A stretch of DNA of 64,000 nucleotides from Nitrospirota bacterium (GCA_963790025.1 CAWBMP010000002.1:128001-192000); one strand, 5' to 3'; shown: positions 36,444 to 62,821, numbered from the stretch's first letter. The notes: generated by a model not told the origin, from the letters alone. Translations and numbers: made by a program.

Positions 36444-36467
36444 CAAAAGGAGATAAAGTAAAAGACA

Positions 36468-43456: not shown

Positions 43457-43468
43457 CTTTATCCCCTC

Positions 43469-44440
43469 CTATTCTCTGAAAGAGCAGCCATTCGCAGATT
43501 TTAAACCGTTGCTGCCATGAATGGATGGATGGCAGTTCAGGCAGGCACGTCCGAACATATGGTTCGACTGGTTTGCGGCGGCAACGGCAGGATTTGATGT
43601 TGTGAAGAAGGTAAACGGCTGTCCACCCATGCCACTGCCATGACTACCCCCGGTTGCATGGCACTGCTCGCACAGCACCGGCACCCTCTGCGTCAGCATT
43701 CTGTCGTGATTGCTCCCGTGAGGGTTATGGCAATTCAGGCAATTCTCTTCGACAGGAGGATGTTCGTTCATATATGGACCTCTTTTTTCGGCGTGACACT
43801 TATAACAGAGCTCGTTGACGGAATCGGCCCTCAGCATCTTATCATTAAGCTCACCATGAGGGTTATGACAGTCAACGCATGCCACTTTGCCCTCCTTGAT
43901 GGGATGGTGGGACTGTTTGTTTACCATAGTCTTGATGTCCCTGTGGCACTGGAAGCAGACCTCGGACTTTTCAGCTTTCAGGAGTTTATCTCCCCCTTTG
44001 TGGGGCGAATGGCAATTGTCGCAGGAAACATCCTCCATTTTATGCTTGCTGGAATTCCAGAAAGCCTGGTCCTTCATAACTTCATGGCAGGCAAGACACT
44101 TTGCTGTCTTGGCCTTTGGATCAGTTTTTTTGTCAAAGGCAAAGATATCTACGCCCCTGCCGCCGCCTTTCTCAACATGCTTTGCACCTGGACCGTGGCA
44201 GGTCTCGCAGGCATCCTGCGATGCAGGCCCCTTCACATGTTTCTTGGAATGGATGGTCTTTGCATAAGACGCATATTGGGCCTCGTGACAGCCCTGACAG
44301 GTTTCAGCGCCGATGAAACCTTCTTTTTCCATCGTTCCTTCCTTTGTTTCCTTTTCACTGCTCCTGGACATGGAGACAAAGGTGAATAGAAAGACAAGAG
44401 GCATTAAAAGAAAAACTATGTATTTTTTTTGCATCTCCAA
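43469..44440 (-). CDS. mtrA: DmsE/MtrA/MtoA family decaheme cytochrome c
   Basis: Ten CXXCH motifs; CHAEKRGP, EHPPV.E.C..CH.PHGS and IHGSN signatures. Confidence 0.92.
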   Translation of the reverse strand: MEMQKKYIVFLLMPLVFLFTFVSMSRSSEKETKEGTMEKEGFIGAETCQGCHEAQYASYAKTIHSKKHVKGPASQDACETCHGPGAKHVEKGGGRGVDIFAFDKKTDPKAKTAKCLACHEVMKDQAFWNSSKHKMEDVSCDNCHSPHKGGDKLLKAEKSEVCFQCHRDIKTMVNKQSHHPIKEGKVACVDCHNPHGELNDKMLRADSVNELCYKCHAEKRGPYMNEHPPVEENCLNCHNPHGSNHDRMLTQRVPVLCEQCHATGGSHGSGMGGQPFTFFTTSNPAVAAANQSNHMFGRACLNCHPSIHGSNGLKSANGCSFRE

Positions 44441-47612: not shown

Positions 47613-49808
47613 TTAAGGCAAATAGCTCTCGAACCCGCCAATTCTCCAGAAATCCCAGATGTTCATATAGAAAGCGTCAAAGCGCCTATGCCGCACCTGT
47701 TCCTCCTCGCGGCGCCAGAAAAAAAGATCGCTTGCAGTAAAGAGATAACCGAAATGATAGGCAGTGAAGTCCTTTCGCTGCCTGGCAATAAGGCTGACCG
47801 GATACCGGTAAATCTTCTCCTGAAGGTGTACTATCATCAGGGTTTTCTGTCGAACGCGCGCAGCCTGCTGCAGCAGCATTTCGGCCTCGGGGGTCGCTGG
47901 TTGCCACCATTGCCCTTTTCTCTGGGCCAGAAGAGCTCTAAGGGTCAAAGCACGGTGCTGTGCCCTGAGTGAGGTCACTTTAAGCGCCCATGTCAATTCG
48001 TGCGCTATCAAGGGAAGATCAGGAGTCATCCGGCTATTCCCCTCGTAAATCCGGCCGGTTTCACGTTCAAGCCCTTCCACCGCTGCGTTCATCTCATTGG
48101 CGTACATTTCCAGTTCTGATACAGTAGATGCCACGATGCGTTTTGCTTCCTCATCAGATGCTTGATATAGCAGCCACGAATTGGTAAAGGCCGGTCTCGG
48201 CTGAAAAGGGCTGTTAAAGGGCCAGGGAAGCTCTGCTGAAGGGTCACGTGCAGACATAAAAGCGATAAGTCCCCTGCCCTTCAACCAGTAGTTCTGAATG
48301 GACAGGGCCCTCTGAAATAACCGGTATATACGGGCATCTGGAAACAGGTCCTGCAGCACACTGAGAGGGGATGTCTTCTGCAAAGAACCGTTTTTATAAT
48401 GGTCCCAGGACCACCTGGCAATACTCCAGTTCACGAGCCAGTAGCCCCATTCCCAGCCCGAACTGAACGTGAGGTGATTATCAATGCCTGCCCTTTTCAT
48501 TGTTTGCATATCGGACCACCGCGCATCAAGATACGGAAGGAGAAGCAGCGGAACAGAATTATCGAAGGAGACCCAGTACGCTGCTTCAGGCCAGTACCAG
48601 GTCTCCCGCCGTTTGTTTTCCCATGTTGCACTGGCAAGCATATACCGAAGATTCCTGTTTCCATAGACAGGTGCACTTGTCTCGTCGATTGAATAAAACA
48701 TGACAGTATGTATCAATGTGCCCGCCTTGAAAGATTTGCCGTTTTGGCCGCCATGCTGACCGTTAATGACATGGGTCGGGACCATCACCTTGGTTTTATA
48801 TCTCTCATTGACCTGTCTGATGAGATACGTTTTCAGTTCAGGCATCAATTCACCAAGATTGGGCATATATTCACCCATACTGAAATCAACGGTGATAAAA
48901 TCCCAGTTCACCCGGAATATCCATGCTAGAGTGTTATCGATTTGCTGTTTATAGGAAGGAAGAAACCTTAATAGCTTTATGCTCTGAAAAGCCTTTTGCT
49001 GAACCATGAAGAGAGAGAATTCAATACCTGCAAGTATGCCTCTTTTATGCGCATATGCTGCGAGGTCACCGGCGTGCGTGATCCAGCGCGCACGATCAAT
49101 GTCCCTTAAAAGGTAAAACTGAAACACATTCTGCTGGTTTCTCGCCAGCCAGTCTATATACTCTCTGAGGTCTTCGGCAGCATGAGGGTAATCAGGATTA
49201 TGAAGTTGCTCGGTAAGTTCGACAGGATGAAGGGAATGGATATGAAACCCTTTCTTGTCAAAGCGCGGAAAGGCGTCCCACCGAAAGTTCACCGGCAGCG
49301 GCCAGTGTTTATGGAAAGGGACAAGGGTCCTTTTGGGATGGTAAAATTTAAACCCGAGTTTCTCCTGGAGCAGTGCGTAAAGTCCGCAACTCACCCCCTG
49401 AAAAGAGGGTGATGTAAGGGCAAGGACCACACCGCCGCCTTTGCCGGAGGAAACCCAGTGATACTCGTGGTCCGGGTATTGCAAATAATCGTAGACTCTT
49501 CCCTTTGCAAAACGGTCAGTTAGGGCTGTGTTTTCTCCGCCGCTTCTTGAAACAGCTATATGCACCCCGGCAGAAGGATTATTCAGAGACACGGACGCGG
49601 AGGGAAATCCCTTCTTCAGAAGACTTACAACGTCCCTTATCGTAATGGCAGTAATGGAATTATTGAGGAATACCTGCGGGACGTCGATACTGATGGAGCG
49701 CACAGGAACCCCTTTGCCGGAGGCAAGCCCATCAGATGCGGAAATAAAAATCAGAATAAAAAGCAAGGCACATTTTACAATCATATAGTTAAAGTTTTTA
49801 TCCATCAC
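47613..49808 (-). CDS. Exported hypothetical protein, possibly glycoside-hydrolase-like
   Basis: Signal peptide; G...GLY.LL...LG..F.HP and P.F..KGFH.H reminiscent of GH20/GH67 N-terminal regions. Confidence 0.6.
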   Translation of the reverse strand: MMDKNFNYMIVKCALLFILIFISASDGLASGKGVPVRSISIDVPQVFLNNSITAITIRDVVSLLKKGFPSASVSLNNPSAGVHIAVSRSGGENTALTDRFAKGRVYDYLQYPDHEYHWVSSGKGGGVVLALTSPSFQGVSCGLYALLQEKLGFKFYHPKRTLVPFHKHWPLPVNFRWDAFPRFDKKGFHIHSLHPVELTEQLHNPDYPHAAEDLREYIDWLARNQQNVFQFYLLRDIDRARWITHAGDLAAYAHKRGILAGIEFSLFMVQQKAFQSIKLLRFLPSYKQQIDNTLAWIFRVNWDFITVDFSMGEYMPNLGELMPELKTYLIRQVNERYKTKVMVPTHVINGQHGGQNGKSFKAGTLIHTVMFYSIDETSAPVYGNRNLRYMLASATWENKRRETWYWPEAAYWVSFDNSVPLLLLPYLDARWSDMQTMKRAGIDNHLTFSSGWEWGYWLVNWSIARWSWDHYKNGSLQKTSPLSVLQDLFPDARIYRLFQRALSIQNYWLKGRGLIAFMSARDPSAELPWPFNSPFQPRPAFTNSWLLYQASDEEAKRIVASTVSELEMYANEMNAAVEGLERETGRIYEGNSRMTPDLPLIAHELTWALKVTSLRAQHRALTLRALLAQRKGQWWQPATPEAEMLLQQAARVRQKTLMIVHLQEKIYRYPVSLIARQRKDFTAYHFGYLFTASDLFFWRREEEQVRHRRFDAFYMNIWDFWRIGGFESYLP

Positions 49809-50009
49809 CAGATTGCCTTATTTTTATCGATTACTATATGTAATATTGTGATAAAACGCAAGATAGACAGGTGCGGGGCAGTGGGGTGTCGGCAGAGTGC
49901 ACCCCACAATATTGTCTAAAATATTTGGAATAGTGTATAATTATGGAAATTATATGGAGCACCTTAGTTGCTCTGTTTTTAAATTACAATATAAGGAGGT
50001 GAACAAAGC

Positions 50010-50276
50010 ATGAGGATGAAATCAATTATCGCTTTATTAGTAGCTTTGGTATTTACGCTCGGTATGGTCAGCTTTACATTTGCAGCTGATATGAAGGAAA
50101 TGAAGGGCACCGTTACAAAGATGGACGCTAAGTCCGTCACCATTAAGGACGCAGCCGGAAAAGAGACAAAGGTCGATGCGGTATGCAAAGATGTAAAGGT
50201 CGGCGATAAGATCACTGTTAAAGACGGCAAGTGCATGAAAGAAGCGCCTGCTAAGAAGAAGAGCAGCGGTTATTAA
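50010..50276 (+). CDS. Small secreted Lys-rich protein (OB-fold-like)
   Basis: AAGGAGGT RBS, signal peptide ending TFA, GTVTK.D...VTIKD, VKVGDKITV. Confidence 0.8.
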   Translation: MRMKSIIALLVALVFTLGMVSFTFAADMKEMKGTVTKMDAKSVTIKDAAGKETKVDAVCKDVKVGDKITVKDGKCMKEAPAKKKSSGY

Positions 50277-50296
50277 TAGCAGTTGTCGCAGTACAT

Positions 50297-50334
50297 AAGA
50301 GGGTGAGAGTCCAAAGCTTTCACCCTTTTTTATT
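50297..50334 (+). terminator. Intrinsic terminator
   Basis: aagagggtgagag ... ctttcacccttttttatt. Confidence 0.75.
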
Positions 50335-50341
50335 AAGAGAC

Positions 50342-50434
50342 AGGTATAGGCATAAGTAAAGGTATAGACAAAAATATTGATATCCTTCCTTTGTCTTTTA
50401 TTTTTTTCTTTACCTTTACCTCTACCTTTGCCTA
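50342..50434. repeat. Degenerate hexamer inverted repeat upstream of trmJ
   Basis: aggtataggcataagtaaaggtatagac ... ctttacctttacctctacctttgcct. Confidence 0.7.
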
Positions 50435-50437
50435 ATT

Positions 50438-51196
50438 ATGTCAAACTGGAAAGATAATGTCTCTTTCGTACTCGTCGAGCCGCGTGAGCCCGCCAATATC
50501 GGCGCATCTGCACGGGCAATGAAAAACATGGGCTTCAAGGGCCTCTGCCTTGTAAAGCCGCCAGAAATCAACGACGAGGCACGGTCGCTTGCCCATAACG
50601 CCCTTGATGTCCTGGAAGGGGCAAGGCATTATGCCTGTCTTACTGATGCGCTTGACGATAAATCGCTTGTTGTCGCCGTAGCACGAAGGACCGGCAAGAA
50701 GCGAGGGTTAATCCTCGGACCGGACGAGACCGCGCAAAGAGTGTATGAAATTGCCTCCCATAATAAAGTGGCGCTTCTCTTCGGCAGGGAGGACAGGGGG
50801 TTGTATAACGAAGAGGTCAATGAGTGCGGCCTGCTCCTGACCATTCCTGCAAACAAGGAGCACCCCTCTTTAAACCTCTCCCACGCCATAATGGTTGTGG
50901 CCTATGCCCTTTCGAGGGTCCAATACAGAAAAGATCTTGTCCAAGCCGTGCCGGTGAAATCAAGGCGCGGGCAGAGCGGCCTTATCACCCACGGAGAACT
51001 TTCCGCGCTTTATGAGCGGATGGCAAACATCATCACGCTGCTCGAATACATCCCCCGGGGGGACAGAAACCTGAAGAAGCAAATAATGGATAACTTAAAG
51101 CATTTTATCGGCAGGGCGGGACTCAACGACTGGGAGATGAAAATGCTCCACGGCTTTTGCTCGCAGATAGAGCGCAAGTTGGGGAAAGGTGAGTGA
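50438..51196 (+). CDS. trmJ: TrmJ/LasT family SPOUT RNA methyltransferase
   Basis: VLVEP..PANIGASARAMKNMG, LFGRE.RGL.NEE, SLNLSHA. Confidence 0.88.
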   Translation: MSNWKDNVSFVLVEPREPANIGASARAMKNMGFKGLCLVKPPEINDEARSLAHNALDVLEGARHYACLTDALDDKSLVVAVARRTGKKRGLILGPDETAQRVYEIASHNKVALLFGREDRGLYNEEVNECGLLLTIPANKEHPSLNLSHAIMVVAYALSRVQYRKDLVQAVPVKSRRGQSGLITHGELSALYERMANIITLLEYIPRGDRNLKKQIMDNLKHFIGRAGLNDWEMKMLHGFCSQIERKLGKGE

Positions 51197-51201
51197 AGTT
51201 G

Positions 51202-51290
51202 TGTTCACGAAAAATAAAGTTGGTAACTGAAAAATAAAGTCGGTAATTAGAAAATAGAGTTGGTAATTGAAAAATAAAGTCGGCAACTGA
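51202..51290 (+). mobile_element. Tn7-like transposon right end (TGT terminus + four TnsB-type binding sites)
   Basis: TGTTCACGA then four contiguous 20-mers AAAATARAGTYGGYAAYTRR (51211-51290), in register with the Tn7 right end as I recall it (TGTGGGCGGACAATAAAGTCTTAAACTGA). Confidence 0.8.
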
Positions 51291-51431
51291 AAAACTTCCT
51301 GTATTTACCGGTATTAGCTAATTCAGTAAATTAATCAAGTTGACCAATTTAGTAATATCGTTAAAGTACTATTAAGTGTGGAGTCTGTTATCGGAAGAAA
51401 AATACATTATCGAGCCGTAACAGATGTTTCT

Positions 51432-52130
51432 GTAGAGTAGAGAGCTGGCGTAGTAGTCGGAGACCCTATCTCCAGCTCCCCCTCGTCGAACCGGACGGTC
51501 GCTTTTCGCGAATACGGTTCTCCAATCATCTTCTTCCAGAGGCTTTCGCTCTCGCTTGGCCTTCTGGTATAGCTTCCACTAGAAATTCCGGAACTTCTGG
51601 AGTTTATAGCGTTACCGCAATCTCCTTTCCTTTTTTCCTTCAGAAGCGCGATGAAGGCATTGCCCCTTCCCTCTCCCAAAGTTATGTTGTCTTTGAGATG
51701 CAAACGGTACAATATGAGCAACTCCGATTCCCTTGCCGACCCAGTGAAACTTCGTTACCTTATATCCACCAGTTGCTGCTCTCGCAGCATCGTCAAGGGT
51801 CTCCCGTGTTCATTGTCGTATGACTTCCCCTGCGTGTCACCCCTGACACCCCGGGAGTCCATCTATCGGTTACGGTAGTTTTTGTCAGGATAGATGCTAC
51901 GGCCTTCCCCTTTCTGTGACAGGGTCGGCAACTCCGTCTCGTGTTTCGAGGCTACATCTGGGTTCGCTTGCGCTGCAACCCGCAGGTTTGCTCAACTCCC
52001 TTTAGGAGCCTTTGTCAGGAAACTTAGTGCTTCAGGTTACCCTTTACACCTCCCTCAAGCTACGTGGGCGAGCTACCAAACTCCCACGATCGGACTTTAA
52101 CCGATAAGTCATACGTTTTACACGGCATAC
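51432..52130 (-). mobile_element. Group II intron with the RT ORF deleted (about 700 nt)
   Basis: Domain V at 51520-51488, domain VI hairpin ending CTCTACTCTAC, 5' end GTATG (approximate), RT N-terminal remnant WKLYQKAKRE at 51578-51549. Confidence 0.85.
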
Positions 52131-52198
52131 CACAGAAAAACGCACAGCAGTCATGCCGCCAGGGGCTGCATGTTTCAAATGGAATCCATTTTATTGTA

Positions 52199-52325
52199 GT
52201 CCCCTCCTCAGAGAGGGTTAGGGGTGGGTTTAGGCCGTGGTCGTATTGTCGTCACTGCGAGCGAAGCTTGGCAATCTCGTCTTTTCCCGATCTCTAGATT
52301 CACGAAATCAAGCCTGACCCGATTT
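52199..52325. repeat. Cluster of three different REP-like remnants
   Basis: cccctcctcagagagggttaggggtggg; gtcactgcgagcgaagcttggcaatct; aaatcaagcctgacccgattt. Confidence 0.45.
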
Positions 52326-52396
52326 GCTGCATCTATTTGCTCTGACTTACAGACTGCAAGATAGGCAAACTCAATATGGACCCCGAATTACTAATT

Positions 52397-53869
52397 TCAC
52401 CTGGAGTAAAAACTAGGTTTAGGAAAGCCACCCCGGACAACAACAACTACAATTACAATTGGGGACTGTCCGGTCTGATGAACAAAGACCTCAATATCGT
52501 CTTCTACAACACCAACTGGTGCAGATTTCGGTGAGGCTTCGAGTACGGACAACACGCCAACTCGCTTCCCCAGCCCGATTGCATAAGCTGCTGTCTGATC
52601 AAAAAATTTAGAGAGATCCTTAGGAAACAGAACTTTGCTGTTCTCGACTTTCAATTCGATCGGGATATCCCGGAATGTGAGATCAGTGATCCCACCTGCT
52701 GCTTCGGGGTGACCTTGCAAGTGCTCACCAATATCACACCGGTTTCGAAGCATCTCAGTGGCTTTGTTTTGGAATTGCGATTCTGACGTACCAGCCTCGA
52801 ACAAGCCGCCTTTCAAAGCTTGTGCAGCGATGTTGCCCAACCCACCAAGTACTATCATTGTGTTGGCAACATCATCTGAATGCAAACCGGGGAAGCTTCT
52901 CAACTTGTCGCGAACGCTGAGGAGATGTCTATCAACATTTGAAAACCCAGTCAAAGGGTTTTTAGTAACATCACATCCCTCCAAGAGTAGACGGCGATGC
53001 CCTACAATTGCAACATCCTGGCAATTACTCGTGTCGTCGAATTCAGCTGCGTAAAGGAATTCGTATGGCCTTGAGCCGAACGAATGAGCCACCTCCAGAA
53101 CTGCCCGACCGGTGCCAGTAAGAAAGAAAGGGCCATCACCTTCGGGTTTCTCGAACTTGAAACTGGGCAACCAATCCCGCTCGCGTATGTCGATCGTTAC
53201 AGGTGTTAACGAGAGGACACTGGCACCTGTGGGCCAATTTGAAACCCTGACTTCTATCGTAAGGTCGTAAGACATCCCCGGCTTAAGATAGTTCCAGTGT
53301 TTAGCCGGCTCGCCGTCGATATCAAACTTCAAGAACGCTACGGTCGTTTCGGTTTTCTCAGTCTCTGCTGAACTTCCGTTGGAGACAGGAACGCGGAACC
53401 CTCCAAAACCTCGATCCCGAAGATTGGCGAACAAAAGAAGGGGCAGGGTCCATCGTTTCAACTGATCCTGTATGAGGGTCAATTCGTCCACGTTCTTGAG
53501 ACCTTCGACTTGATCCAGAAACGCGTTCAGCCGCTCATCAGCAGCGAAACTCAAAGACTTGTCAAGCTCTGACGCCTTTAGCTTCGCCGAACTCAAGAAC
53601 CTTTGAGCATCTGGTTCAGCATTGCGTACGGCATGCTTCCACTCAGCCAAGAGCACAAAGATGGCAATGGCCCTGTGATATGAGCGGTACTGATCCTCGA
53701 CATCACCTTGACCGATCTCAGAGATTGTTGCTTCAAGCTCCAAACAGGCTCTTTTTAGGCGCTCAAGGTCATGCGGCGAAGGCTTCAGAGCCCCCGCAAG
53801 TGTTGCAGCAACCTCAATCCTCGAAGAAAAAGCTCGGTGGAAAATCTCGAAGTTTGGCTCGTTTCTCAT
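52397..53869 (-). CDS. Hypothetical protein with a C-terminal PD-(D/E)XK restriction-endonuclease-like domain
   Basis: E..FQ helix, GGITDL...IPIELK, Q...Y; GGAG RBS inside the upstream gene. Confidence 0.75.
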   Translation of the reverse strand: MRNEPNFEIFHRAFSSRIEVAATLAGALKPSPHDLERLKRACLELEATISEIGQGDVEDQYRSYHRAIAIFVLLAEWKHAVRNAEPDAQRFLSSAKLKASELDKSLSFAADERLNAFLDQVEGLKNVDELTLIQDQLKRWTLPLLLFANLRDRGFGGFRVPVSNGSSAETEKTETTVAFLKFDIDGEPAKHWNYLKPGMSYDLTIEVRVSNWPTGASVLSLTPVTIDIRERDWLPSFKFEKPEGDGPFFLTGTGRAVLEVAHSFGSRPYEFLYAAEFDDTSNCQDVAIVGHRRLLLEGCDVTKNPLTGFSNVDRHLLSVRDKLRSFPGLHSDDVANTMIVLGGLGNIAAQALKGGLFEAGTSESQFQNKATEMLRNRCDIGEHLQGHPEAAGGITDLTFRDIPIELKVENSKVLFPKDLSKFFDQTAAYAIGLGKRVGVLSVLEASPKSAPVGVVEDDIEVFVHQTGQSPIVIVVVVVRGGFPKPSFYSR

Positions 53870-56381
53870 TTTCTTTCTCCAAGTCAGACAGAAGGCTGCT
53901 CCATTTTTCGATCAACTCGACAAACGCCCCTCCGCCTCCTATTGTGTGTTCAATCTCGGAAGCCGTCGCGACTAAAGCGGTTTCAAGTCGCCACTGTTCA
54001 TTTCGATCTTCTACTGGGATGCTTGCCATCAGTTCCCTAAAACAAGTGCTTGCAGCTGCATGGTTTCCTGCCTTAGTCAAGGCGGCAGCATAAAGAAGCG
54101 CTTCAACAAAGCCTTCTGGCCTGAATGGCCGGAGTGCTTCGAATGCCTTTTTAATTTCGTCTATACAGTTTTGAAGCTCATTGTGTGGGGCTCTTAAGAT
54201 CGCGGACACGCAGTCGTCGGTAGAAATGGAGCGCGTATAGTCATCTTGAATTGACTTCAGCGCCACTTTGGCAAAGCCAGGAACCTCCCCAAAGCCATAG
54301 TGCAACCGATCAACAGCATGGTAAAGGGCACTTCCCTCCAAGCTGAGCAAGATACCCGAGAGCAGCAGGCCGAGTTTCCCTTTTCTTTCTTCAGGCGAAA
54401 GGCAGAGAAACGCAAATGCGTCGATACAGTCGACAACGAAGTCCTCTTGCTTGCTTTGTTGGGAGTAGTAAACAATCAGGCTCCAGAGCCCGTGCTTAAT
54501 AAGGCTTCGTTTCTCTTTAGGAAATGATCTACGCCTCAGAGAATGAACGGCCGACCGATGAACAATGACATATGGGTCAGTAAGCAAGACGGAAAATGCT
54601 TCAAAGAACAGATCGGGAAAGTTCTTCACCAAGTCGTATGGGACATCCCCCCATGCTTGTACAGCGCTGGCACGGATCAATGTGCTCTCGTCCATAAGTG
54701 CACGATACCAATCGGAGAGCACTATCGTTAGGCTTTCGACCCCGGCCAACAATTTTGAAACATGAACTATCATGTTTCCACGCATTTGCGTTTGGTTCTC
54801 GGGCAACTTCCGATACAGTTCTAGGAGCTGTTCAATTCCTTCACGTCCCTTGGATTTTGCTCCAACTGCAGCCCATTCGATCAGTGCGCTCTGCAAGCCG
54901 TCAATTGCTCCGCGTTTGTTCGTTTTATCCATATGAGCGAGCACATCGCCAGTCAGTTCGAGAGAGCGCTCTGTATCTACTTGCTCATACTTCTCGCTAA
55001 GTGTAGCCGCTGCACCGATCAGATTATCAAAATGCTCGACTGCGAGCTGAGCAAACTCGTCCCAAGAATGTCTGAAGAACTGTCCCGCTTCATCCATGCC
55101 GTTCTCTGGGCTTTCTATGGCAGCCCAAAGCAATCTTCTAAATCCTATCCTTTGTGCTGTTCCTATCTGTGCCTTTTCCCGATAGCTGTGTTTCAGCACT
55201 GATCTATAGGTTCTATTAGCTTCTTCTCTTCCGGTATTGTCGTTGTCAGCAAGGAACGATTGGATGATCTTGTCCGTTTCCTCTGGAAAACGTTCGAGGC
55301 ACTTCGAGGCCGCTTCCCGAAGATAGTAGAGTACGCTGCTATCCCGGCGCACTCTCGGAAGCAGAAATCGCCTGCGCATAAGCTTGGCGAAGATACTTTC
55401 AGTATGTCTTGAAAGCAGCTCGTCACTATCCGTCGCAAGTATGATCTCAACGGCATCCCCAATTTTTTCTGGGTTCGCGTTACTTAGAAGTGCGTCGACC
55501 TCCGCACAAATCTGAGCACGCCTTTTCTGGAAGAGCGCGTGAATTGGCGCAGCATCAAGCCTTATTGGTTCGCTTCCTCCAAAATGCACTCCGGGTGGCG
55601 GTCCTAAGGCCATTGACACAAAGGGACGTAAAACCTTTTTCAAGTCGTCTTGGGAAAGCTTTTCCGCCCCCGACAAAACCAGGTCGATAGCCGCTGAAGA
55701 TTTCTCATAGCTGTTCACCAAGCTCACCGCCACTGAAAGCTTTTCTTCTGATTCTAACGGTGCCCTGAGTAATGCCTTCGCGGCAGGTCTAGAATACGGC
55801 AAGTTCTCGTGTAGCACTGCTGGCAAGAGATGTTCGATCACCTTTCTGGTAAATGTCTCAGGAGCAAGGTTTGCGAGTTGCTCCAGACGCGGATCGTTCC
55901 TTTCTATATCTTCCTGATCAAGCTCATCCAACAGATCGAAAACGAAGGTTTCCTCTAGAGAGAGTTCGTAGCGAAGTTTCGCCCGTTCTTGGCGCCTGTC
56001 GGTCTGCTTCTGCTTTCTCTCCCTTTCTTCTTCTTCGCGCGCTTCCTTTAGGTTTTCGGCAGCTTGTTCCCTCGGGTCAACAAAACTCATAATATTAGGA
56101 AATCCTACGGGAACCCGTTCCTCACAACCCTTGCAGTTGTTCTGGTAGAAGTCATAAGCTGCATCTTCCAGCAGCCAACAATACATGGAGTTTTTCTTAG
56201 AGAATTTGCACTGGACGCCCATGTGCCCAATTGGGAGACCAGTTGCAGCTTCAATCATTCCCCTTCCATGAGACCTTACGAACTCGGCATGGAAACACCA
56301 ATTTCTTAGAAGCTTTGTTGTTCGGAGATTGCGCTGGCCTGCTTCTATTGCATTTTTATAGCTGTCTTCAAAATCATCCAT
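53814..56381 (-). CDS. Large hypothetical protein: N-terminal Cys motif, coiled coil, HEAT/ARM-like helical repeats
   Basis: 855 aa; C...C...CKGC, charged coil, LMDE..LIRASAV and LLTDPYVIVHRSAV HEAT-like motifs. Confidence 0.75.
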   Translation of the reverse strand: MDDFEDSYKNAIEAGQRNLRTTKLLRNWCFHAEFVRSHGRGMIEAATGLPIGHMGVQCKFSKKNSMYCWLLEDAAYDFYQNNCKGCEERVPVGFPNIMSFVDPREQAAENLKEAREEEERERKQKQTDRRQERAKLRYELSLEETFVFDLLDELDQEDIERNDPRLEQLANLAPETFTRKVIEHLLPAVLHENLPYSRPAAKALLRAPLESEEKLSVAVSLVNSYEKSSAAIDLVLSGAEKLSQDDLKKVLRPFVSMALGPPPGVHFGGSEPIRLDAAPIHALFQKRRAQICAEVDALLSNANPEKIGDAVEIILATDSDELLSRHTESIFAKLMRRRFLLPRVRRDSSVLYYLREAASKCLERFPEETDKIIQSFLADNDNTGREEANRTYRSVLKHSYREKAQIGTAQRIGFRRLLWAAIESPENGMDEAGQFFRHSWDEFAQLAVEHFDNLIGAAATLSEKYEQVDTERSLELTGDVLAHMDKTNKRGAIDGLQSALIEWAAVGAKSKGREGIEQLLELYRKLPENQTQMRGNMIVHVSKLLAGVESLTIVLSDWYRALMDESTLIRASAVQAWGDVPYDLVKNFPDLFFEAFSVLLTDPYVIVHRSAVHSLRRRSFPKEKRSLIKHGLWSLIVYYSQQSKQEDFVVDCIDAFAFLCLSPEERKGKLGLLLSGILLSLEGSALYHAVDRLHYGFGEVPGFAKVALKSIQDDYTRSISTDDCVSAILRAPHNELQNCIDEIKKAFEALRPFRPEGFVEALLYAAALTKAGNHAAASTCFRELMASIPVEDRNEQWRLETALVATASEIEHTIGGGGAFVELIEKWSSLLSDLEKENEKRAKLRDFPPSFFFED

Positions 56382-56948
56382 TTTGACTAACCTTCTTGCG
56401 CTTTTTTCAAAAATGCCAGTAGGTAATACGCATTAGCGGCACCCGTAAGAAGAGGAGTTCAGGGTAAGCTCTACTGTTGTTGCTTTGCACCTTTCAGTTG
56501 ACCTTCTTCATTTCTACATAGCCAGTTATTAAGTGATTACCCCGCTAACACCAGGGGATGTTGATTTATGCAAACCCATAAATATTCATGATTTGCTGTA
56601 ACTGTCTGCTTTAATACAATTACTCCCGTGACTAATATTCAACTCCCTACTTCCCTGCCACGAATGTTTGCGAAATAAAATAGTCTATAAACATCGGCGA
56701 GAAAAGTAAAGAGAGTTTATGAGTAGATATCCGGCCGGATTGTGACAGTTATTTTAGGAAACCTCTTCATCTGGCGATATCGCATTAATGCGAAGTATTC
56801 AGGTTACTTTGCCGAGTCAGGTCCTCACAGTACTGTTGAGTTTCGATAAGTCGCAACTCAATGAAGAGTACACGTGGAAATCGTTATGACGGTCGCTGTG
56901 GACCCGCAGGTTGGTATCTATTACGCGCGGATGATAAGGATTTCATTT

Positions 56949-57065
56949 TTAATGACTTGGTAGCGGACCGCCATATTTAACATTTGGCAGCAATGTCAGG
57001 TCATGAAGAGCCCAAACTACAGCACTCATTTCGAGTTGTCCCAATTCCTTGAGGGTGTCCCACAT
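56949..57065 (-). CDS. Possible 38-aa microprotein (MWDTLKELGQLEMSAVVWALHDLTLLPNVKYGGPLPSH)
   Basis: AGGAGGAG RBS shortly before the ATG; no recognisable motif. Confidence 0.35.
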   Translation of the reverse strand: MWDTLKELGQLEMSAVVWALHDLTLLPNVKYGGPLPSH

Positions 57066-57196
57066 TACGTCTCCTCCTATATTAGGATAAATACGACGAA
57101 GCTGATTGAAGTTTAATCTGTTTTCCAACTCAAAATTGTTAACTCGAGAAGCAGTAATAAATACAAAAAGCGAACCTATTAAGATACCAACAGTCT

Positions 57197-58243
57197 GTGT
57201 ATTTTTTCTCATGCCACCAAGAGGAGGTGTTGGACCGGCCGGGGAAAGCGCCAATAATTTATGGAAGAAGCAAAAAGGTAGATAAAGCAATAACTGCGGT
57301 AAAGAATATTTTCTTAAAGTTTGGTTGGGAAGGAGATGGGAAAATACGTGTAATTTGGATCCCACCTTTTTTGGATCAATCTAGTGATCCCAATTATGGC
57401 TCCTTTATTTGGCATGTTAAACAATACAATAACGGAACTTCTTTCTTAGGTTTTAAGGAACCTATTCAATCAGCAAGATTATTAGATCAGAATGTGGTTT
57501 TTAAGCAGAATGATAGAGATGTAAAACCCATAAACCTAATATACACGGAAGAAAAAAACTTATTACTGCAACTCAAAAAAAAGAAAAAACTGCTACAAGA
57601 AGTGATAGGGCATGTAGAATCAAATATTTTGAGTAGCGAATTAATAAACTCGACATTGGGTTATATTCAAAATGACGTGATGTCAGAATTCAACGATTTC
57701 ATTGATGAGTGTTATTTGCAGTATTTGGTACACGTCTTAAGCGATAATAATCCTGACTCTATAAAGCTTAAATCTATAAATGTAAGAATTGGCCTTGATC
57801 ACATTTCGGAACAACCTAGCTTTGGAATAGGAGATAATTGGCTAACAATACGTGAAATTATTAGTAACATTTGGAGGGATTTCAAATTCTTGTCGTTTAA
57901 AGACAAGTTTAAGGAGATAATGAACTGTATAGATTTTAAGTATGATGCAAAACAAATAGCAGATATTAATAAACATGTAGTCATAAGGAACTGCATTCAA
58001 CATCATCAATGGGCATTAGCCGCTGATGTCTTAAAAACAATAGGGTTAAATAAAATAGAAATATTGAATGAAAAAGGAAAATATACAACAATCCAAAAAT
58101 GGAACAAAATTGTGCTGACATCTCAAGAAGTTAGCTCTATAATTGATAACCTCGCCCATTTCTGTGTTGAATATGTAAAGCATGTAAAACATAGAATTAA
58201 AACCAGACATTTTTTGCACAACTTTAAAAAAGAAGATTATTAA
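57197..58243 (+). CDS. AT-rich hypothetical protein with a C-terminal HEPN-like RxxxxH motif
   Basis: RNCIQH in a helical C-terminal half; N-terminal GWEGDG..WIPPF..WHVKQ..NG domain; start uncertain. Confidence 0.7.
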   Translation: MYFFSCHQEEVLDRPGKAPIIYGRSKKVDKAITAVKNIFLKFGWEGDGKIRVIWIPPFLDQSSDPNYGSFIWHVKQYNNGTSFLGFKEPIQSARLLDQNVVFKQNDRDVKPINLIYTEEKNLLLQLKKKKKLLQEVIGHVESNILSSELINSTLGYIQNDVMSEFNDFIDECYLQYLVHVLSDNNPDSIKLKSINVRIGLDHISEQPSFGIGDNWLTIREIISNIWRDFKFLSFKDKFKEIMNCIDFKYDAKQIADINKHVVIRNCIQHHQWALAADVLKTIGLNKIEILNEKGKYTTIQKWNKIVLTSQEVSSIIDNLAHFCVEYVKHVKHRIKTRHFLHNFKKEDY

Positions 58244-58549
58244 GATTTATTAGTTCAAACACTCATGGTTAAAGCAATTGAATGCAATCGTTGAACTATA
58301 GTAAAGGAGATTAAAGAAGGGATTTATCGAGCAAATATCAGAAATTTATGCTGCTATGAACAAACAGGACAAGAAAGGCAAAGAGAATTTTACTGCGTGG
58401 GACTTTCATCTCTTCAGATTAATTCTATGGTAGTTATTTTCGCAAGTCTGCAGCAGTTGCGCGGTCGCGAAACTGTGGATTATTCAGGTACATCCGTACT
58501 GCAAGGCTATTTTCAAATACGAGGATTACAGGAAGAACCACATGTCAGC

Positions 58550-58825
58550 CTATTCTTTTATCCTTGAAAGTCTGTAAGTCACGAAACCGTCCGGACAAAT
58601 GACATTAACGTGCTCAGCCTTCTCCCACTCCATCTTCTCCGACCACCGCATGGCAAATGCCATTGGATGTAAAGAAGCAAATGCCCGACCGCACATCCCG
58701 CTGGGTTCAGGTGTTCGAGCTGTTATTATATAATTTTCTCCCTTTCGGCATTTGGCTGAACCTGGGCAAGTTCCGGATTCACTGCGAACGTCGATAGCTT
58801 CACATTTGATCTTATAATTAGCCAT
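58550..58825 (-). CDS. TIGR04076-like Cys-motif small protein
   Basis: GTCP, GMC..AF..L.P, CPDG.V.Y; GAGGAAG RBS. Confidence 0.75.
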   Translation of the reverse strand: MANYKIKCEAIDVRSESGTCPGSAKCRKGENYIITARTPEPSGMCGRAFASLHPMAFAMRWSEKMEWEKAEHVNVICPDGFVTYRLSRIKE

Positions 58826-59143
58826 TCTTCCTCCTCTTTCCCATTGAGTAATGAATATGAAAAATACTGATTGTATTCCTCACCATTTTAGCAGAGAAGG
58901 CAGATAAATGTTAGGAAGCAAATCACCGGGTATGTTCCGGGATGAAGCCGACGCTTCCCTCGCCAGGGTTGGAAGGTTCGTTTGCTCCGGAAGAGGTGAC
59001 AAATTGGAATGGGCCTGGGCCGTATCATCCTTAGGTCACTTTCAGATATCGCCTACAGCTAATTCTAATATAAATTTAAAATATTCCCAATCTATTTCTC
59101 AATGTGATACAATTCGTTTAAACTAAAATTAAGAGGAGGCAAC

Positions 59144-59254
59144 ATGGCAACAGCAATGAAAGCGAAATGTGCTGGAAAGACGAAAGAAGGAAAGCAATGT
59201 AAGAAGTCCGCAAGTGGGAAATCTAAATTCTGTGCATCTCACAAGAAAAAATAG
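59144..59254 (+). CDS. 36-aa C3H zinc-knuckle-like basic microprotein (DUF5763-like)
   Basis: MATAMKAKCAGKTKEGKQCKKSASGKSKFCASHKKK; GAGGAGG RBS; not in the ORF track. Confidence 0.75.
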   Translation: MATAMKAKCAGKTKEGKQCKKSASGKSKFCASHKKK

Positions 59255-59636
59255 CTGTAAACTGTAAAAGCATTTAAGAAAACTCTCAGAGGAGAGGATT
59301 GTCTATTAACAGCGTGTAAATTCTGATTCTACACGAAATGCTGTTTTATACCTTATTCCAACCAACATATTTCTCAGGGGTGCCAGAGACTCACCAAGTT
59401 CTTCCTGGAAGCCACAGTTTAAGATTGTCGCAACTTTATGCACAATTCTCCAAGTAATCAACTCTCCAGACATCTCAGTAACAGTGTTGATTCCCAAGAG
59501 AATATGTTAAAAACCAGTTGCGTGTTTCATCGCAGTAACAAGCGGTCCGGAAATGCTGTCAAAAAGTATAGGTAGCTATTAATTCTTATTAATGTCATAC
59601 TAACCAAAGAAGGTTCAGAGGTTTTTTAACTAAGAG

Positions 59637-59676
59637 ATGGCCACGGAGACTTTTAGCTCTGTGGCTATTTTATTTT
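59637..59676 (+). terminator. Terminator-like hairpin just upstream of csp
   Basis: atggccacggag-acttttag-ctctgtggctat followed by tttatttt. Confidence 0.5.
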
Positions 59677-59727
59677 GGTTTACTATAAATCTGATACTTT
59701 ACTTTAGTATAAAAGGAGGTATGCACG

Positions 59728-59928
59728 ATGGTTAACGGAACAGTAAAGTGGTTCAATGACTCAAGAGGCTTCGGCTTTATTACAGGCGACGACGGAGGGG
59801 ATGTTTTTGTCCACCACTCGTCGATCCAGGGTGAGGGATTCAAGTCCCTTGCCGAGGGTGACAGGATCAGCTTTGATACGGAAAAAGGCCCTAAGGGTCC
59901 CAAGGCGATCACGGTAATTAAACAGTAA
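59728..59928 (+). CDS. cspA: Cold-shock protein
   Basis: GTVKWFN, RNP1 GFGFI, RNP2 VFVHHS; AAGGAGGT RBS. Confidence 0.95.
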
Positions 59929-59982
59929 GTAACCGAAGGTCCTCTGCGTTAAGCAGGGGACACTCCCCTTCAAGGAGGAATC

Positions 59983-60531
59983 ATGAAGATTAAAAAGCAG
60001 GACAAAAAAAATATGATAAAAGAAACCGGCGAAATCAACGGAAGAATTACTGAAAAAACTCAAACTGTCGAAAAACCTTTAAGAGCCAAGAAACTTCTGG
60101 CGCAGAAAACCTTTTCTGAGAAAGCCAGTTCGACGGAGAAACCCGATACCACCAAGAGCCCCAAAACGGCTGCAAATTCTGCAACCTGTGCAAATCCGAA
60201 ATCGGAACCCCCTGGGATGAAAAAAAAGTATATAGAGTCTCGCAATATCTGCGAAGTTACATTCAGATTGCATAGTGAGGCATCACCCGGGGCAAAGAAG
60301 GCAACCGTAGTAGGAGACTTTAATAATTGGGAGAAAGAGGCCACACCTTTAACGAAACAGGAAAACGGCGACTTCATTATAGCACTCGAACTCGATACAG
60401 GGACTGAATACCGTTTCCGCTATTTCATTGATGGGCAGCGGTGGGAAAATGACTGGCATGCAGACAAATATGTCAAGAGCCCTTATGATGTCGAAGATTC
60501 GGTAGTAGTGTGCGCAGCCATTGAAGGGTAG
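59983..60531 (+). CDS. Isoamylase early-set (CBM48-like) glycogen-binding protein with a basic low-complexity N-terminus
   Basis: VTF, VVGDFNNW, YRFRYFIDG..W.ND..AD.Y. Confidence 0.88.
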   Translation: MKIKKQDKKNMIKETGEINGRITEKTQTVEKPLRAKKLLAQKTFSEKASSTEKPDTTKSPKTAANSATCANPKSEPPGMKKKYIESRNICEVTFRLHSEASPGAKKATVVGDFNNWEKEATPLTKQENGDFIIALELDTGTEYRFRYFIDGQRWENDWHADKYVKSPYDVEDSVVVCAAIEG

Positions 60532-61464: not shown

Positions 61465-61729
61465 TAGCGCCGTATTTCCAGTAGAAGCGGGTGAAGTCGA
61501 GAAGCGCCAGTTGGACCCCTCTGAAATTTATCTGATTAGCATTGGCGGAAAGATTGCCGATAACATTCACCTGTCACTGTATTGAGGCGTTATGTAACGG
61601 AAATTAAGTGTGCAGCACTGAAGGAATATCTTGAGCCGTTACTATGGAAGGCAGTCACGTAATCTTAAGCACTGCAAATTGTCATCCACATTTCACTCCT
61701 CAAAGGAGGATTCCATACAGGAGAAAATA

Positions 61730-62821
61730 ATGAATAATGCAGATAATGCCATACCGGAGACTCCATCTCCGGAAGAGTGTGCTAACAAGATCTTTGAGAT
61801 CAGCGGCGCCAAGCTTGATTCCGATATCGCTGCGGACCTATGGCAAAAAATATTGCAGCATAAATGGCTCATGTCTGAAAAGCTCAGCCGTGATGTAGGA
61901 TTGAGGACCGCATGTATCGACTTTCTTGAAAACATGGACCAGGCCCTCAGGGAATACATAGACTATAAACGGAAAGATGTTTTAGCCGAAATGGGAGCTC
62001 AAAAGATTAGAGCTGAAATATGGGATACGATATCCGATTCGCAGCCTCCAAAGCAATTGGTACAACGAAGAATTATTCTTCCGCTTAAAGAAGATGGCCT
62101 ATCCAAAAAGCATGGGGTGATTCCTCCTAAAACCATCATCTTCTTTGGACCTCCGGGTACGGGGAAGACTCATTTTGTAAAGGCTATAGCAGGAGTCCTG
62201 TCATGGTGGTACATCGAGATTTTGCCCAGCATGCTTATGGTGGACGGCGTAGAAAGGATAGGCGCTAATTTGCACAACGTAATGGAAAAGGCGCGTACTT
62301 TGGAGGATGTCGTTGTCTTTATAGACGAGTTTGAAGAGATTGCCGCGAGCAGGAATGAAGCAAACCGGATTGACAAGTCCATTACTAACGAATTCCTCAA
62401 ACAGGTTTCTTTGCTGAAAAATCAGGGGAATAAGGTATTATTTATATGTGCGACCAACTATATCCGGCTGTTGGACGCCGCACTGCTTCGACCGGGAAGA
62501 TTTGATTGCATTATTCCTGTCGGCGGGCTGGACGAGGATGGAAGGCGAACTATTTTGGAACAATTCCTGTCCAACCTTAATGCGGAGAACGTCGACCTCA
62601 ATCTCATTGTAAAGATGACAGCACGATTTACGCCGGCTGATATCGAATATCTCTTCCAGCAAGTGGCCCAATTTGCCTTTGAACAGGAGTATGCAAGCAA
62701 ACATAATTATCTTGTTACCACAGATACGTTTGTTGAAATTGTACCGAAAATTAAGCCATCTCTCACCGACGAGATTATTGATGAATTTCAAAAAGACGTT
62801 ATCACATATTCTCGAACATAG
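61730..62821 (+). CDS. AAA+ ATPase with a DUF4032-like N-terminal domain
   Basis: ILQHKWLMSE...RDVG; Walker A GPPGTGKT, Walker B VFIDE, SRH ATN...LDAALLRPGRFD. Confidence 0.88.
   Translation: MNNADNAIPETPSPEECANKIFEISGAKLDSDIAADLWQKILQHKWLMSEKLSRDVGLRTACIDFLENMDQALREYIDYKRKDVLAEMGAQKIRAEIWDTISDSQPPKQLVQRRIILPLKEDGLSKKHGVIPPKTIIFFGPPGTGKTHFVKAIAGVLSWWYIEILPSMLMVDGVERIGANLHNVMEKARTLEDVVVFIDEFEEIAASRNEANRIDKSITNEFLKQVSLLKNQGNKVLFICATNYIRLLDAALLRPGRFDCIIPVGGLDEDGRRTILEQFLSNLNAENVDLNLIVKMTARFTPADIEYLFQQVAQFAFEQEYASKHNYLVTTDTFVEIVPKIKPSLTDEIIDEFQKDVITYSRT

What the first reader, a model, noticed from the sequence alone, without database searches (positions are those of the whole stretch)
52397..56381. 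Candidate undescribed two-gene defence system: Zn-motif/HEAT-like scaffold + PD-(D/E)XK nuclease protein
Seen: two minus-strand ORFs (855 and 490 aa) overlapping by 56 nt, with a GGAG RBS for gene 2 inside gene 1. They are the first intact genes inside the Tn7-like end. Gene 1 has a Cys cluster (QC..YC..NCKGC), a charged coiled coil and HEAT-like helices, and I see no Walker motifs. Gene 2 has a helical N-terminus, a beta-rich middle (FLKFDIDG..YDLTIEVRV) and a C-terminal E..FQ / TDL..IELK / Q...Y nuclease-type signature. Known: Tn7-like elements often carry anti-phage cargo, and helical-repeat sensors coupled to REase effectors occur in systems such as Avs. Inference: a sensor-effector pair without an NTPase, which matches no named system I can recall.
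Basis: partly seen in the sequence, partly recalled or inferred. Interest (0 to 1): 0.85.

Follow-up and report, generated by a model that had tools for sequence, protein, structure and literature searches.

The report
Olokun anti-phage gene pair, already described
The two overlapping genes are a typical copy of Olokun, a known two-gene bacterial anti-phage system made of a helical-repeat scaffold protein and a DNA-cutting enzyme, so the finding is real but not new.

Summary
The two minus-strand ORFs exist as described: 855 aa and 490 aa, with a 56-nt overlap and a GGAG before gene 2. They are not an undescribed system. PADLOC's models for Olokun match both: OloA at E 4.1e-73 and OloB at E 3.6e-56. 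A 2025 preprint describes Olokun as an adaptin-like OloA plus a PD-(D/E)XK nuclease OloB that form a 2:2 complex.

My results agree with that description:
- OloA models as a HEAT/karyopherin-like solenoid.
- OloB carries invariant E363, D396, E405-x-K407, Q425 and Y429.
- Neither protein has a Walker A motif.
- The predicted interface joins the OloA C-terminus to the OloB N-terminal helices, score 0.61 against 0.00 for the best control.
- Natural OloA-OloB fusions exist.
- In 19 of 19 related loci from many phyla the genes are adjacent, and in 9 of 16 examined they lie beside strong known defence genes.

The "Tn7-like end" is not supported. The genome has no TnsA, TnsB-type or TniQ match, and the 20-nt repeats also occur in a congener without the pair.

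Verdict: ordinary Olokun, low novelty.

The parts
53814..56381 (-). oloA, 855 aa. Small N-terminal alpha/beta module with four invariant cysteines, a long helix at residues 98-137, then a HEAT/adaptin-like alpha-solenoid running to the C-terminus.
   Evidence: ORF. PADLOC OloA PDLC03925 at E 4.1e-73, residues 21-853. AlphaFold2 model with pLDDT 91.8 and pTM 0.81, all-alpha. Foldseek matches karyopherin Kap121, PP2A-A, CAND1, importin-beta and AP2, with 141 matches at E <= 1e-3. The family has 666 cluster representatives, typically 840-860 aa long.
56124..56297 (-). Codons for OloA residues 29-86, which hold the invariant C29, C58, C83 and C86. A zinc site is inferred, not shown.
   Evidence: These columns are invariant in an alignment of 75 OloA relatives that are 20-87% identical to the window's protein.
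53814..53869 (-). 56-nt out-of-frame overlap of oloA's 3' end with oloB's 5' end. The GGAG ribosome-binding site lies just upstream at 53880-53877. The arrangement suggests translational coupling (inferred).
   Evidence: Sequence. The 56-nt overlap is conserved in 18 of 19 related loci (65 nt in L020), and GGAG in 18 of 19 (GGAT in L018). An annotated E. coli copy has the same overlap.
52397..53869 (-). oloB, 490 aa. N-terminal helical bundle (7-138), low-confidence linker (153-170), Ig-like beta-sandwich (175-298), helices (310-354), and a C-terminal PD-(D/E)XK-type nuclease unit (about 360-480).
52583..52783 (-). Codons for OloB residues 363-429, the putative catalytic core: E363, Q367, D396, E405-L406-K407, Q425 and Y429.
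   Evidence: All are invariant in 46 sequences, including 8 natural fusions that are 28-35% identical. The predicted order is helix 363-375, strands 384-388, 394-399 and 402-409, helix 416-432, strand 437-444. The preprint calls OloB a PD-(D/E)XK nuclease.
56382..56513 (-). 5' leader and probable promoter region of the operon. This is the only flanking DNA shared with related cassettes.
   Evidence: Nucleotide homology to the 19 loci ends between 56378 and 56513 upstream and between 52329 and 52412 downstream in the 16 loci where the contig reaches past oloB's end (L004, L005 and L007 are cut short). A leader of about 45 nt is shared by the window, L002, L003, L008, L011 and L014. The sigma-70 consensus scan found no promoter-like site here.

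Best explanation
The two genes are oloA and oloB of Olokun, a two-gene anti-phage defence system that is already named and partly characterised.

OloA is a large HEAT/adaptin-like alpha-solenoid. It has a small N-terminal module held by four invariant cysteines, probably a zinc site (inferred).

OloB has an N-terminal helical bundle, an Ig-like beta-sandwich and a C-terminal PD-(D/E)XK nuclease unit. The putative catalytic residues are D396 and E405-x-K407, with E363, Q425 and Y429 also invariant.

The last helices of the OloA solenoid (about residues 725-834) clasp the first helix of OloB (residues 4-22) and residues 138-145. This is predicted here. It fits the natural single-chain OloA-OloB fusions and the published 2:2 complex of a homologue.

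The likely mechanism is taken from the homologue and is not shown for this copy. The heterotetramer holds two nuclease domains side by side and, on infection, cuts phage DNA without any NTPase. OloA acts as the regulatory or sensing scaffold. The trigger is unknown.

The 56-nt overlap with an internal GGAG probably couples translation so that the two subunits are made together (inferred).

The pair sits in a strain-specific insertion of about 8 kb, next to an ORF-less group II intron. It is not inside a Tn7-like element.
For: - Family membership: PADLOC OloA E 4.1e-73 and OloB E 3.6e-56, both covering nearly the whole proteins. It is the only OloB match in the genome.
- Published description, from passages and section 5 part 1 of bioRxiv 10.1101/2025.07.10.664194: Olokun is in the PD-(D/E)XK class. 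PfOlokun is about 278 kDa, a 2:2 OloA-OloB complex. [quoted passage not shown] It degrades T7, SECphi17 and SPO1 DNA in vitro but not E. coli genomic or plasmid DNA. Olokun is not among the systems listed as having P-loop accessory proteins.
- Folds: the OloA model (pLDDT 91.8) matches HEAT solenoids, including AP2. The OloB model (pLDDT 85.9) has the alpha-beta-beta-beta-alpha-beta order around the invariant E/D/ExK/Q..Y residues.
- No Walker A in either protein.
- Binding: complex prediction scored 0.61 (three runs: 0.61, 0.63, 0.61) against 0.00 for the best of 3 controls. That mark was reached by 116 of 157 solved complexes and 2 of 215 mismatched pairs. The runs agree in at least 95% of contacts and the partner's pLDDT is 81. 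The interface includes invariant E811 and near-invariant A777 and W827 of OloA, and F10, F14 and R17 of OloB. No Olokun structure is in the PDB by sequence, so the pass is unlikely to come from memory.
- Natural fusions: 8 of the 150 listed representatives are 1311-1330 aa, and all 8 match both Olokun models. P0141 residues 847-1325 align to OloB 4-490 at E 2e-79.
- Linkage: oloA lies directly upstream of oloB in 19 of 19 related loci, with the 56-nt overlap kept in 18 of 19.
- Defence context elsewhere: 9 of 16 loci examined have neighbours matching defence models at E <= 1e-30. These include type I R-M, SIR2-pAgo, Dsr1, PD-Lambda-5, PifA, AbiEi, Cas2, PDC-S39 and PDC-S53. In E. coli the pair sits in an integrase-borne island at tRNA-Thr, beside a SIR2 protein.
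Against: - No experiment exists on this copy. Defence and nuclease activity are known only for a homologue whose sequence I could not compare directly, because the preprint's supplementary table is closed.
- The nuclease fold itself was not confirmed by fold search. All three PDB searches were filled by the N-terminal bundle and the beta-sandwich. The only nuclease-like fold hit was a weak viral Mrr-domain match at E 2.8e-3, rank 11.
- Pfam finds no nuclease family in P0002 or in any of the 46 family members scanned.
- Within 5 kb on either side of the pair in the window, no ORF tested matched a defence model. Beyond that there is only an IetA-like AAA ATPase about 5 kb away and a generic UvrD helicase about 12 kb away. 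Four of the 16 related loci had no defence neighbour, and three had only weak or generic ones.
- The alignment used for OloB in the complex prediction contained the 8 fusion proteins, and my own alignments were not part of the tool's calibration.
Confidence: 0.9

Rival explanations
1. A so far undescribed two-gene defence system. This is the first reader's reading: a Zn-motif/HEAT scaffold plus a REase-type effector that belongs to no named family.
For: Pfam and NCBIfam give no significant family for either protein. Public records call the homologues 'hypothetical protein'.
Against: Both proteins match PADLOC's Olokun models over nearly their whole length, at E 4.1e-73 and 3.6e-56. The window's OloA scores better against that model than the 18 other family members tested. 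The published domain description of Olokun is the same as what is seen here.
Confidence: 0.02
2. A single oloAB gene broken by a frameshift, that is, a pseudogene of the fused 1311-1330 aa form.
For: Fused single-chain forms exist: 8 of the 150 listed representatives. In P0141 the junction falls within about 20 residues of where the window's two frames overlap, at OloA residue about 839 and OloB residue about 4.
Against: The same split is present in 19 of 19 close relatives from many phyla. The 56-nt overlap, the ATG and TGA are kept in 18, and the GGAG in 18. E. coli has it too. Most family representatives are 840-860 aa, which is the unfused length. The characterised PfOlokun is a two-protein complex whose subunits were also expressed separately. 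Both ORFs are intact and their key residues are conserved.
Confidence: 0.02
3. An Olokun-family pair that in this host does something other than phage defence, for example competition between mobile elements or an addiction module that stabilises the inserted DNA.
For: The pair spreads as a bare two-gene cassette with different flanks in every genome. In the window it lies beside a mobile group II intron remnant and strain-specific low-GC DNA. Within 5 kb on either side, no ORF tested matched a defence model.
Against: Nine of 16 related loci are in clear defence islands. Reviews list Olokun among phage-defence systems, and a paper on E. coli defence islands does too. The preprint states that every operon it tested defended against at least one phage. 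A homologue degrades phage DNA but not host DNA in vitro.
Confidence: 0.05

Closest known systems
Olokun (OloA/OloB). Papers I read attribute its naming to Millman et al. 2022. PfOlokun was characterised in bioRxiv 10.1101/2025.07.10.664194.
   Same: Both PADLOC models match strongly. The gene order, the adaptin/HEAT-like OloA, the helical N-terminus and PD-(D/E)XK-type C-terminus of OloB, the lack of an NTPase, and the OloA contact with OloB's N-terminal helices are all the same.
   Different: Nothing that separates it from the family was found. Three features were not mentioned in the passages I read and may or may not be in print: the invariant Cys4 module of OloA, the Ig-like beta-sandwich in OloB, and the natural OloA-OloB fusions. 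I could not compare directly with the PfOlokun sequence because the supplement is closed.
Lamassu effector subunit LmuA (PADLOC model PDLC03853)
   Same: The last 134 or so residues of OloB (356-489) match the last 143 or so positions of this LmuA model at E 1.8e-9. Two fused OloAB proteins match it at about 1e-11.
   Different: Only the C-terminal domain matches. No SMC-like LmuB partner appeared among the neighbours scanned. I could not establish which domain that part of the LmuA model represents: the model found no protein in 301 genomes of the phylum.
Eukaryotic HEAT/ARM solenoids (karyopherin Kap121, PP2A A subunit, CAND1, AP2 adaptin)
   Same: OloA shares their alpha-solenoid architecture (Foldseek E 2.4e-5 and weaker, 141 matches at E <= 1e-3). 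The fused relatives give weak Adaptin_N and HEAT Pfam hits. AP-3 beta is a weak sequence hit.
   Different: TM-scores are low (0.2-0.3) and identity is 10-15%. This is a likeness of repeat architecture only. It is not evidence of common function or descent.
Tn7-like transposons carrying defence cargo
   Same: glmS is in the window at 36468-38294. A short array of direct repeats lies 1.1 kb from the pair.
   Different: No TnsA, TnsB-type (rve, Mu-transpos_C) or TniQ match was found in the genome. Fourteen kb of ordinary genes lie between glmS and the repeats. The repeats are also present in a congener that has no insertion there.

Membership tests
Olokun | A protein matching the OloA profile | tested here: met
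   PDLC03925 at E 4.1e-73, 245.6 bits. Protein residues 21-853 align to profile positions 11-577 of 596.
Olokun | A protein matching the OloB profile | tested here: met
   PDLC03926 at E 3.6e-56, 189.4 bits. Protein residues 8-490 align to profile positions 2-551 of 556. It is the single match in the genome.
Olokun | oloA and oloB adjacent on one strand as an operon | tested here: met
   56-nt overlap on the same strand. The same arrangement is seen in 19 of 19 related loci.
Olokun | OloA is adaptin/HEAT-like and has no NTPase motif | tested here: met
   No Walker A pattern was found. The preprint calls OloA 'adaptin-like'.
Olokun | OloB carries a PD-(D/E)XK nuclease domain | tested here: inconclusive
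   For: D396 and E405-x-K407 are invariant, together with E363, Q425 and Y429, and the predicted order is alpha-beta-beta-beta-alpha-beta. However, fold searches of the whole model did not reach this domain. The only nuclease-like hit is a weak viral Mrr-domain match at E 2.8e-3, and Pfam finds no nuclease family.
Olokun | OloA and OloB form a complex through OloB's N-terminal helical domain | tested here: met
   In silico only. Score 0.61 against 0.00 for the best control. The mark was reached by 116 of 157 solved complexes and 2 of 215 mismatched pairs. The interface is OloA 725-834 with OloB 4-22, 56-57 and 138-145. Natural fusions support it.
Olokun | Protects against phage infection | not testable with these tools
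   This needs expression and phage challenge. Defence-island context is seen in 9 of 16 related loci.
Tn7-like transposon (as context of the pair) | TnsA, TnsB (DDE/rve), TnsC and TnsD/TniQ genes | tested here: not met
   PF08722, PF09299, PF06527 and PF00665 gave no match in the 98.8%-complete genome. The rve control rang in 6 of 14 known genomes. The other three controls rang in none, so those three negatives are weak on their own. TnsC was not searched.
Tn7-like transposon (as context of the pair) | Element ends with arrays of transposase-binding repeats that bound the inserted DNA | tested here: not met
   The 4 x 20-nt array at 51211-51290 is also found after the orthologous SpoU gene in G001 (4 copies) and G003 (1 copy), which lack the pair there. 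In G001 it is followed by MCP and CheW genes. No inverted partner array was found in 49800-60000.
Lamassu | LmuA effector together with an SMC-like LmuB | tested here: not met
   Only the C-terminal 134 residues of OloB match one LmuA model. None of the 12 neighbouring ORFs scanned matched LmuB.

The most novel reading that the evidence does not exclude
The evidence does not exclude that Olokun works by a sensing route still undescribed. In that reading, the invariant Cys4 (probably zinc) module at the N-terminus of OloA, together with the Ig-like beta-sandwich of OloB, is the part that recognises a phage cue. It would release the paired nuclease domains without any NTP hydrolysis.

A second open point is how the bare 4-kb two-gene cassette moves between distant phyla. 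It is 68-89% identical in nucleotides from E. coli to very distant lineages, and homology stops within about 130 nt of the genes. The means of transfer has not been identified.

A programmed +1 frameshift in the conserved overlap, making a fused OloAB like the natural fusions, is a remote further possibility. I saw no slippery site.
Probability: 0.15. Interest if true: 0.5.

Novelty: already known. Interest (0 to 1): 0.15.

Why it matters
As a discovery it matters little. A standard defence-system annotator would label this pair Olokun.

It still has some use as a well-conserved natural example for work on a system whose trigger and regulation are unknown.
- four invariant cysteines in OloA;
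- the invariant E/D/ExK/Q..Y set in OloB;
- a predicted interface between the end of the OloA solenoid and the first helix of OloB;
- natural single-chain fusions that could ease structural work.

It also shows that RefSeq still labels these genes 'hypothetical protein', even in E. coli.

Tried and rejected
- Pfam and NCBIfam on both proteins gave nothing significant.
- Sequence searches of the PDB with each protein and with the OloB alignment returned only weak HEAT-like or chance hits and no nuclease.
- Three fold searches of the whole OloB model against the PDB (Foldseek, VIA wide, VIA second look) were filled by the N-terminal helix bundle and the beta-sandwich. They say nothing about the nuclease domain.
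- The viral library gave only one weak Mrr-domain match.
- The ESM Atlas search with OloB 340-490 gave unnamed clusters at 0.92 and a DpnII-MboI restriction enzyme cluster at 0.85, which is a lead only.
- Pfam on all 46 members of the OloB alignment found no nuclease family.
- I tried to learn what the matched end of the LmuA model is by finding LmuA proteins. There were none in 301 genomes of the phylum. A second try centred on another locus was not accepted by the tool, and I dropped it.
- The Tn7 idea was rejected. The nearest tyrosine integrase is about 97 kb from the pair.
- The promoter and terminator scan of 52100-56800 found no more sites than shuffled sequence.
- Alignment of the cassette flanks across loci showed no shared terminal repeats. 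Only a leader of about 45 nt is shared within the closest subgroup.
- Plasmid collection: only 3 partial hits to OloB.
- Earlier notes of this scan had nothing for this place.
- Millman et al. 2022 itself was not found in the paper library. I know it only through papers that cite it.


Full report
**1. Observation**

They overlap by 56 nt, with gene 2 in the +1 frame. A GGAG lies at 53880-53877, 7 nt before the ATG of gene 2. Neither protein has a Walker A pattern.

**2. Identity**

Pfam and NCBIfam give nothing significant. PADLOC's defence models do: P0001 matches OloA (PDLC03925) at E 4.1e-73 over residues 21-853, and P0002 matches OloB (PDLC03926) at E 3.6e-56 over residues 8-490. The C-terminus of P0002 also matches the end of one LmuA model at E 1.8e-9. 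It is the only OloB match in the 3.45-Mb, 98.8%-complete genome.

Olokun is a named anti-phage system. Two reviews and a paper on E. coli defence islands list it and attribute it to Millman et al. 2022 (passages read). I could not find that paper itself in the library.

I read passages and section 5 part 1 of a 2025 preprint, bioRxiv 10.1101/2025.07.10.664194. It reports the following:
- Olokun belongs among the PD-(D/E)XK systems.
- PfOlokun is about 278 kDa, a 2:2 complex.
- The complex degrades T7, SECphi17 and SPO1 DNA in vitro but not E. coli genomic or plasmid DNA.
- Olokun is absent from the list of systems with P-loop accessory proteins.

**3. Family and anatomy**

A search of 1.84 billion cluster representatives with OloA found 666 at E <= 1e-3, 477 at E <= 1e-10 and 196 at E <= 1e-30. 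Most are 840-860 aa, so 855 aa is the family norm.

In an alignment of 75 of them (20-87% identical to the window's protein), C29, C58, C83 and C86 are invariant. So are G41, P50, R570, P589, D602 and E811.

The AlphaFold2 model of OloA (pLDDT 91.8, pTM 0.81) has a small N-terminal alpha/beta module, a long helix and an alpha-solenoid. Foldseek matches karyopherins, the PP2A A subunit, CAND1, importin-beta and AP2, with 141 matches at E <= 1e-3 but low TM-scores. This shows likeness of repeat architecture only.

For OloB, 46 sequences, including eight fusions at 28-35% identity, keep E363, Q367, D396, E405, L406, K407, Q425 and Y429 invariant. The model (pLDDT 85.9) contains:
- a helical bundle at 7-138;
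- a low-confidence linker;
- a beta-sandwich at 175-298;
- helices at 310-354;
- an alpha-beta-beta-beta-alpha-beta unit that carries the invariant residues.

**4. The two proteins belong together**

- In 19 of 19 related loci from public genomes, an OloA homologue lies directly upstream of the OloB homologue. The hosts include Geomobilimonas, Sulfurospirillum, Marinobacter, Yersinia, Denitrificimonas and metagenome-assembled genomes labelled Nitrospirota, Pirellulaceae, Arenicellales, Chlorobiaceae, Sphaerochaeta and Calditrichia. L004 and L005 are cut by contig ends, and L007 has a frame break near OloA residue 60.
- The 56-nt overlap is kept in 18 of 19 loci (65 nt in L020) and the GGAG in 18 of 19.
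- Eight of the 150 listed OloA representatives are 1311-1330 aa. All eight match both Olokun models, and P0141 residues 847-1325 align to OloB 4-490 at E 2e-79. These are natural fusions in which the end of the OloA solenoid is joined by a short linker to the start of OloB.
- A complex prediction with full OloA and OloB 1-145 scored 0.61 (runs 0.61, 0.63, 0.61) against 0.00 for the best of three controls. That mark was reached by 116 of 157 solved complexes and 2 of 215 mismatched pairs. The runs agree in at least 95% of contacts and the partner's pLDDT is 81. The interface is OloA 725-834 with OloB 4-22, 56-57 and 138-145.

This prediction supports binding but does not show it. My own alignments were used, and the OloB alignment contained the fusions. 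No Olokun structure is in the PDB by sequence.

The split form is thus the conserved, functional state, not a frameshifted gene.

**5. Context**

Nucleotide homology between the window and the 19 loci is confined to 52329-56513 at most. That is the two genes plus at most 132 nt upstream and at most 68 nt downstream. The flanks differ everywhere, including in the one congener of 20 relatives searched that has the pair (G008, 89% identity). No shared terminal repeats were seen. Only a leader of about 45 nt is shared within the closest subgroup.

I scanned 134 flanking ORFs from 16 of the 19 loci. L004 has no flank. L007, L016 and one far ORF of L017 were left out to fit the size limit. The result:
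- 9 of 16 loci have neighbours matching defence models at E <= 1e-30: type I R-M, SIR2-pAgo, Dsr1, PD-Lambda-5, PifA, AbiEi, Cas2, PDC-S39 and PDC-S53;
- 3 of 16 have only weak or generic matches;
- 4 of 16 have none.

In the window itself, within 5 kb on either side of the pair, no ORF tested matched a defence model. Further out there is only an IetA-like AAA ATPase about 5 kb away and a generic UvrD helicase about 12 kb away.

**6. The Tn7 claim**

- glmU and glmS are at 35037-38294. They are followed by a helicase, an MtrB-type porin, a multihaem cytochrome, and FGE-sulfatase, BioD-like, HAD and SpoU genes before the pair.
- The genome has no match to TnsA_N, Mu-transpos_C, TniQ or rve. The rve control rang in 6 of 14 known genomes. 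The other three controls rang in none.
- The nearest tyrosine integrase is about 97 kb away.
- The feature most like a transposon end is four 20-nt tandem repeats at 51211-51290, just after the SpoU gene. The same array follows the orthologous gene in congener G001 (4 copies) and G003 (1 copy). Homology to the window stops at 51290 in G001, where MCP and CheW genes follow. The repeats therefore belong to the resident DNA next to the insertion point, not to a Tn7-like element.
- The inserted, strain-specific DNA runs from about 51291 to somewhere between 58500 and 59700. It contains an ORF-less group II intron, the Olokun pair and about 2 kb of low-GC DNA with unassigned ORFs.

**7. Verdict**

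This is a typical, intact Olokun pair. The mechanism I consider most likely rests on the homologue's biochemistry and on predictions, not on any test of this copy. An NTPase-free 2:2 complex has OloA's solenoid end holding OloB's N-terminal bundle, and the paired PD-(D/E)XK domains cut phage DNA after an unknown cue.

Novelty is low and interest is 0.15.

Noticed in passing
window 51423-52145 (minus strand); Rfam matches at 51839-52098 and 51432-51522: A group II intron RNA lies directly downstream of oloB (RF02005 at 72.6 bits, E 3.9e-19; RF00029 at 34.5 bits, below its gathering score of 40). The same element is multi-copy in congeners, for example at least 4 copies at 86% identity in G007. 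There its two parts are separated by about 1.24 kb that the window's copy lacks, so the window's copy appears to be an ORF-less derivative. That the missing part encodes the intron's protein was not checked.
   Followed up: partly
window 51211-51290: Four tandem 20-nt repeats (unit AAAATAAAGTYGGTAAYTGA) lie right after the SpoU-type methylase gene (50438-51196). The array is conserved after the orthologous gene in congener G001 (4 copies), with 1 copy in G003. Synteny with relatives breaks exactly at its end, so it marks an insertion point. Its function is unknown.
   Followed up: partly
window 56396-58500: Low-GC stretch (32-40% against about 48% around it) with no match in 20 relatives. Its ORFs, 56949-57365(-) of 138 aa and 57197-58243(+) of 348 aa, have no Pfam or PADLOC match. 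The Atlas gives only weak leads for the 348-aa ORF (best 0.87; a HEPN RiboL-PSP cluster at 0.85). It could be further unrecognised cargo of the same insertion.
   Followed up: partly
P0141, P0147, P0150, P0192, P0224, P0238, P0240, P0263: These are natural single-chain OloA-OloB fusions of 1311-1330 aa, 24-31% identical to the window's OloA. All match both Olokun models. They could be useful for structural work. I did not see them mentioned in the passages I read.
   Followed up: yes
window 61631-62821 (+): An AAA ATPase matches PADLOC IetA models (best E 2.6e-25) and Pfam AAA and nSTAND3. The next gene is a PAS histidine kinase, not a protease partner, so an Iet system is not evident.
   Followed up: no
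window 47613-49808 (-): A 731-aa ORF next to the SpoU gene has no Pfam or PADLOC match.
   Followed up: no
window 58915-59411, and 59553-59987: The first stretch has a 97% identical copy on contig C4 of the same genome and copies in congeners. The second is a multi-copy cold-shock protein gene region (CSD domain ORF at 59728-59928, with a weak cspA thermoregulator match).
   Followed up: no
window 41294-44440 (-): An MtrB/PioB-type outer-membrane porin gene lies next to a multihaem cytochrome gene. This is a porin-cytochrome pair of the kind used for extracellular electron transfer.
   Followed up: no
[not shown]
   Followed up: partly
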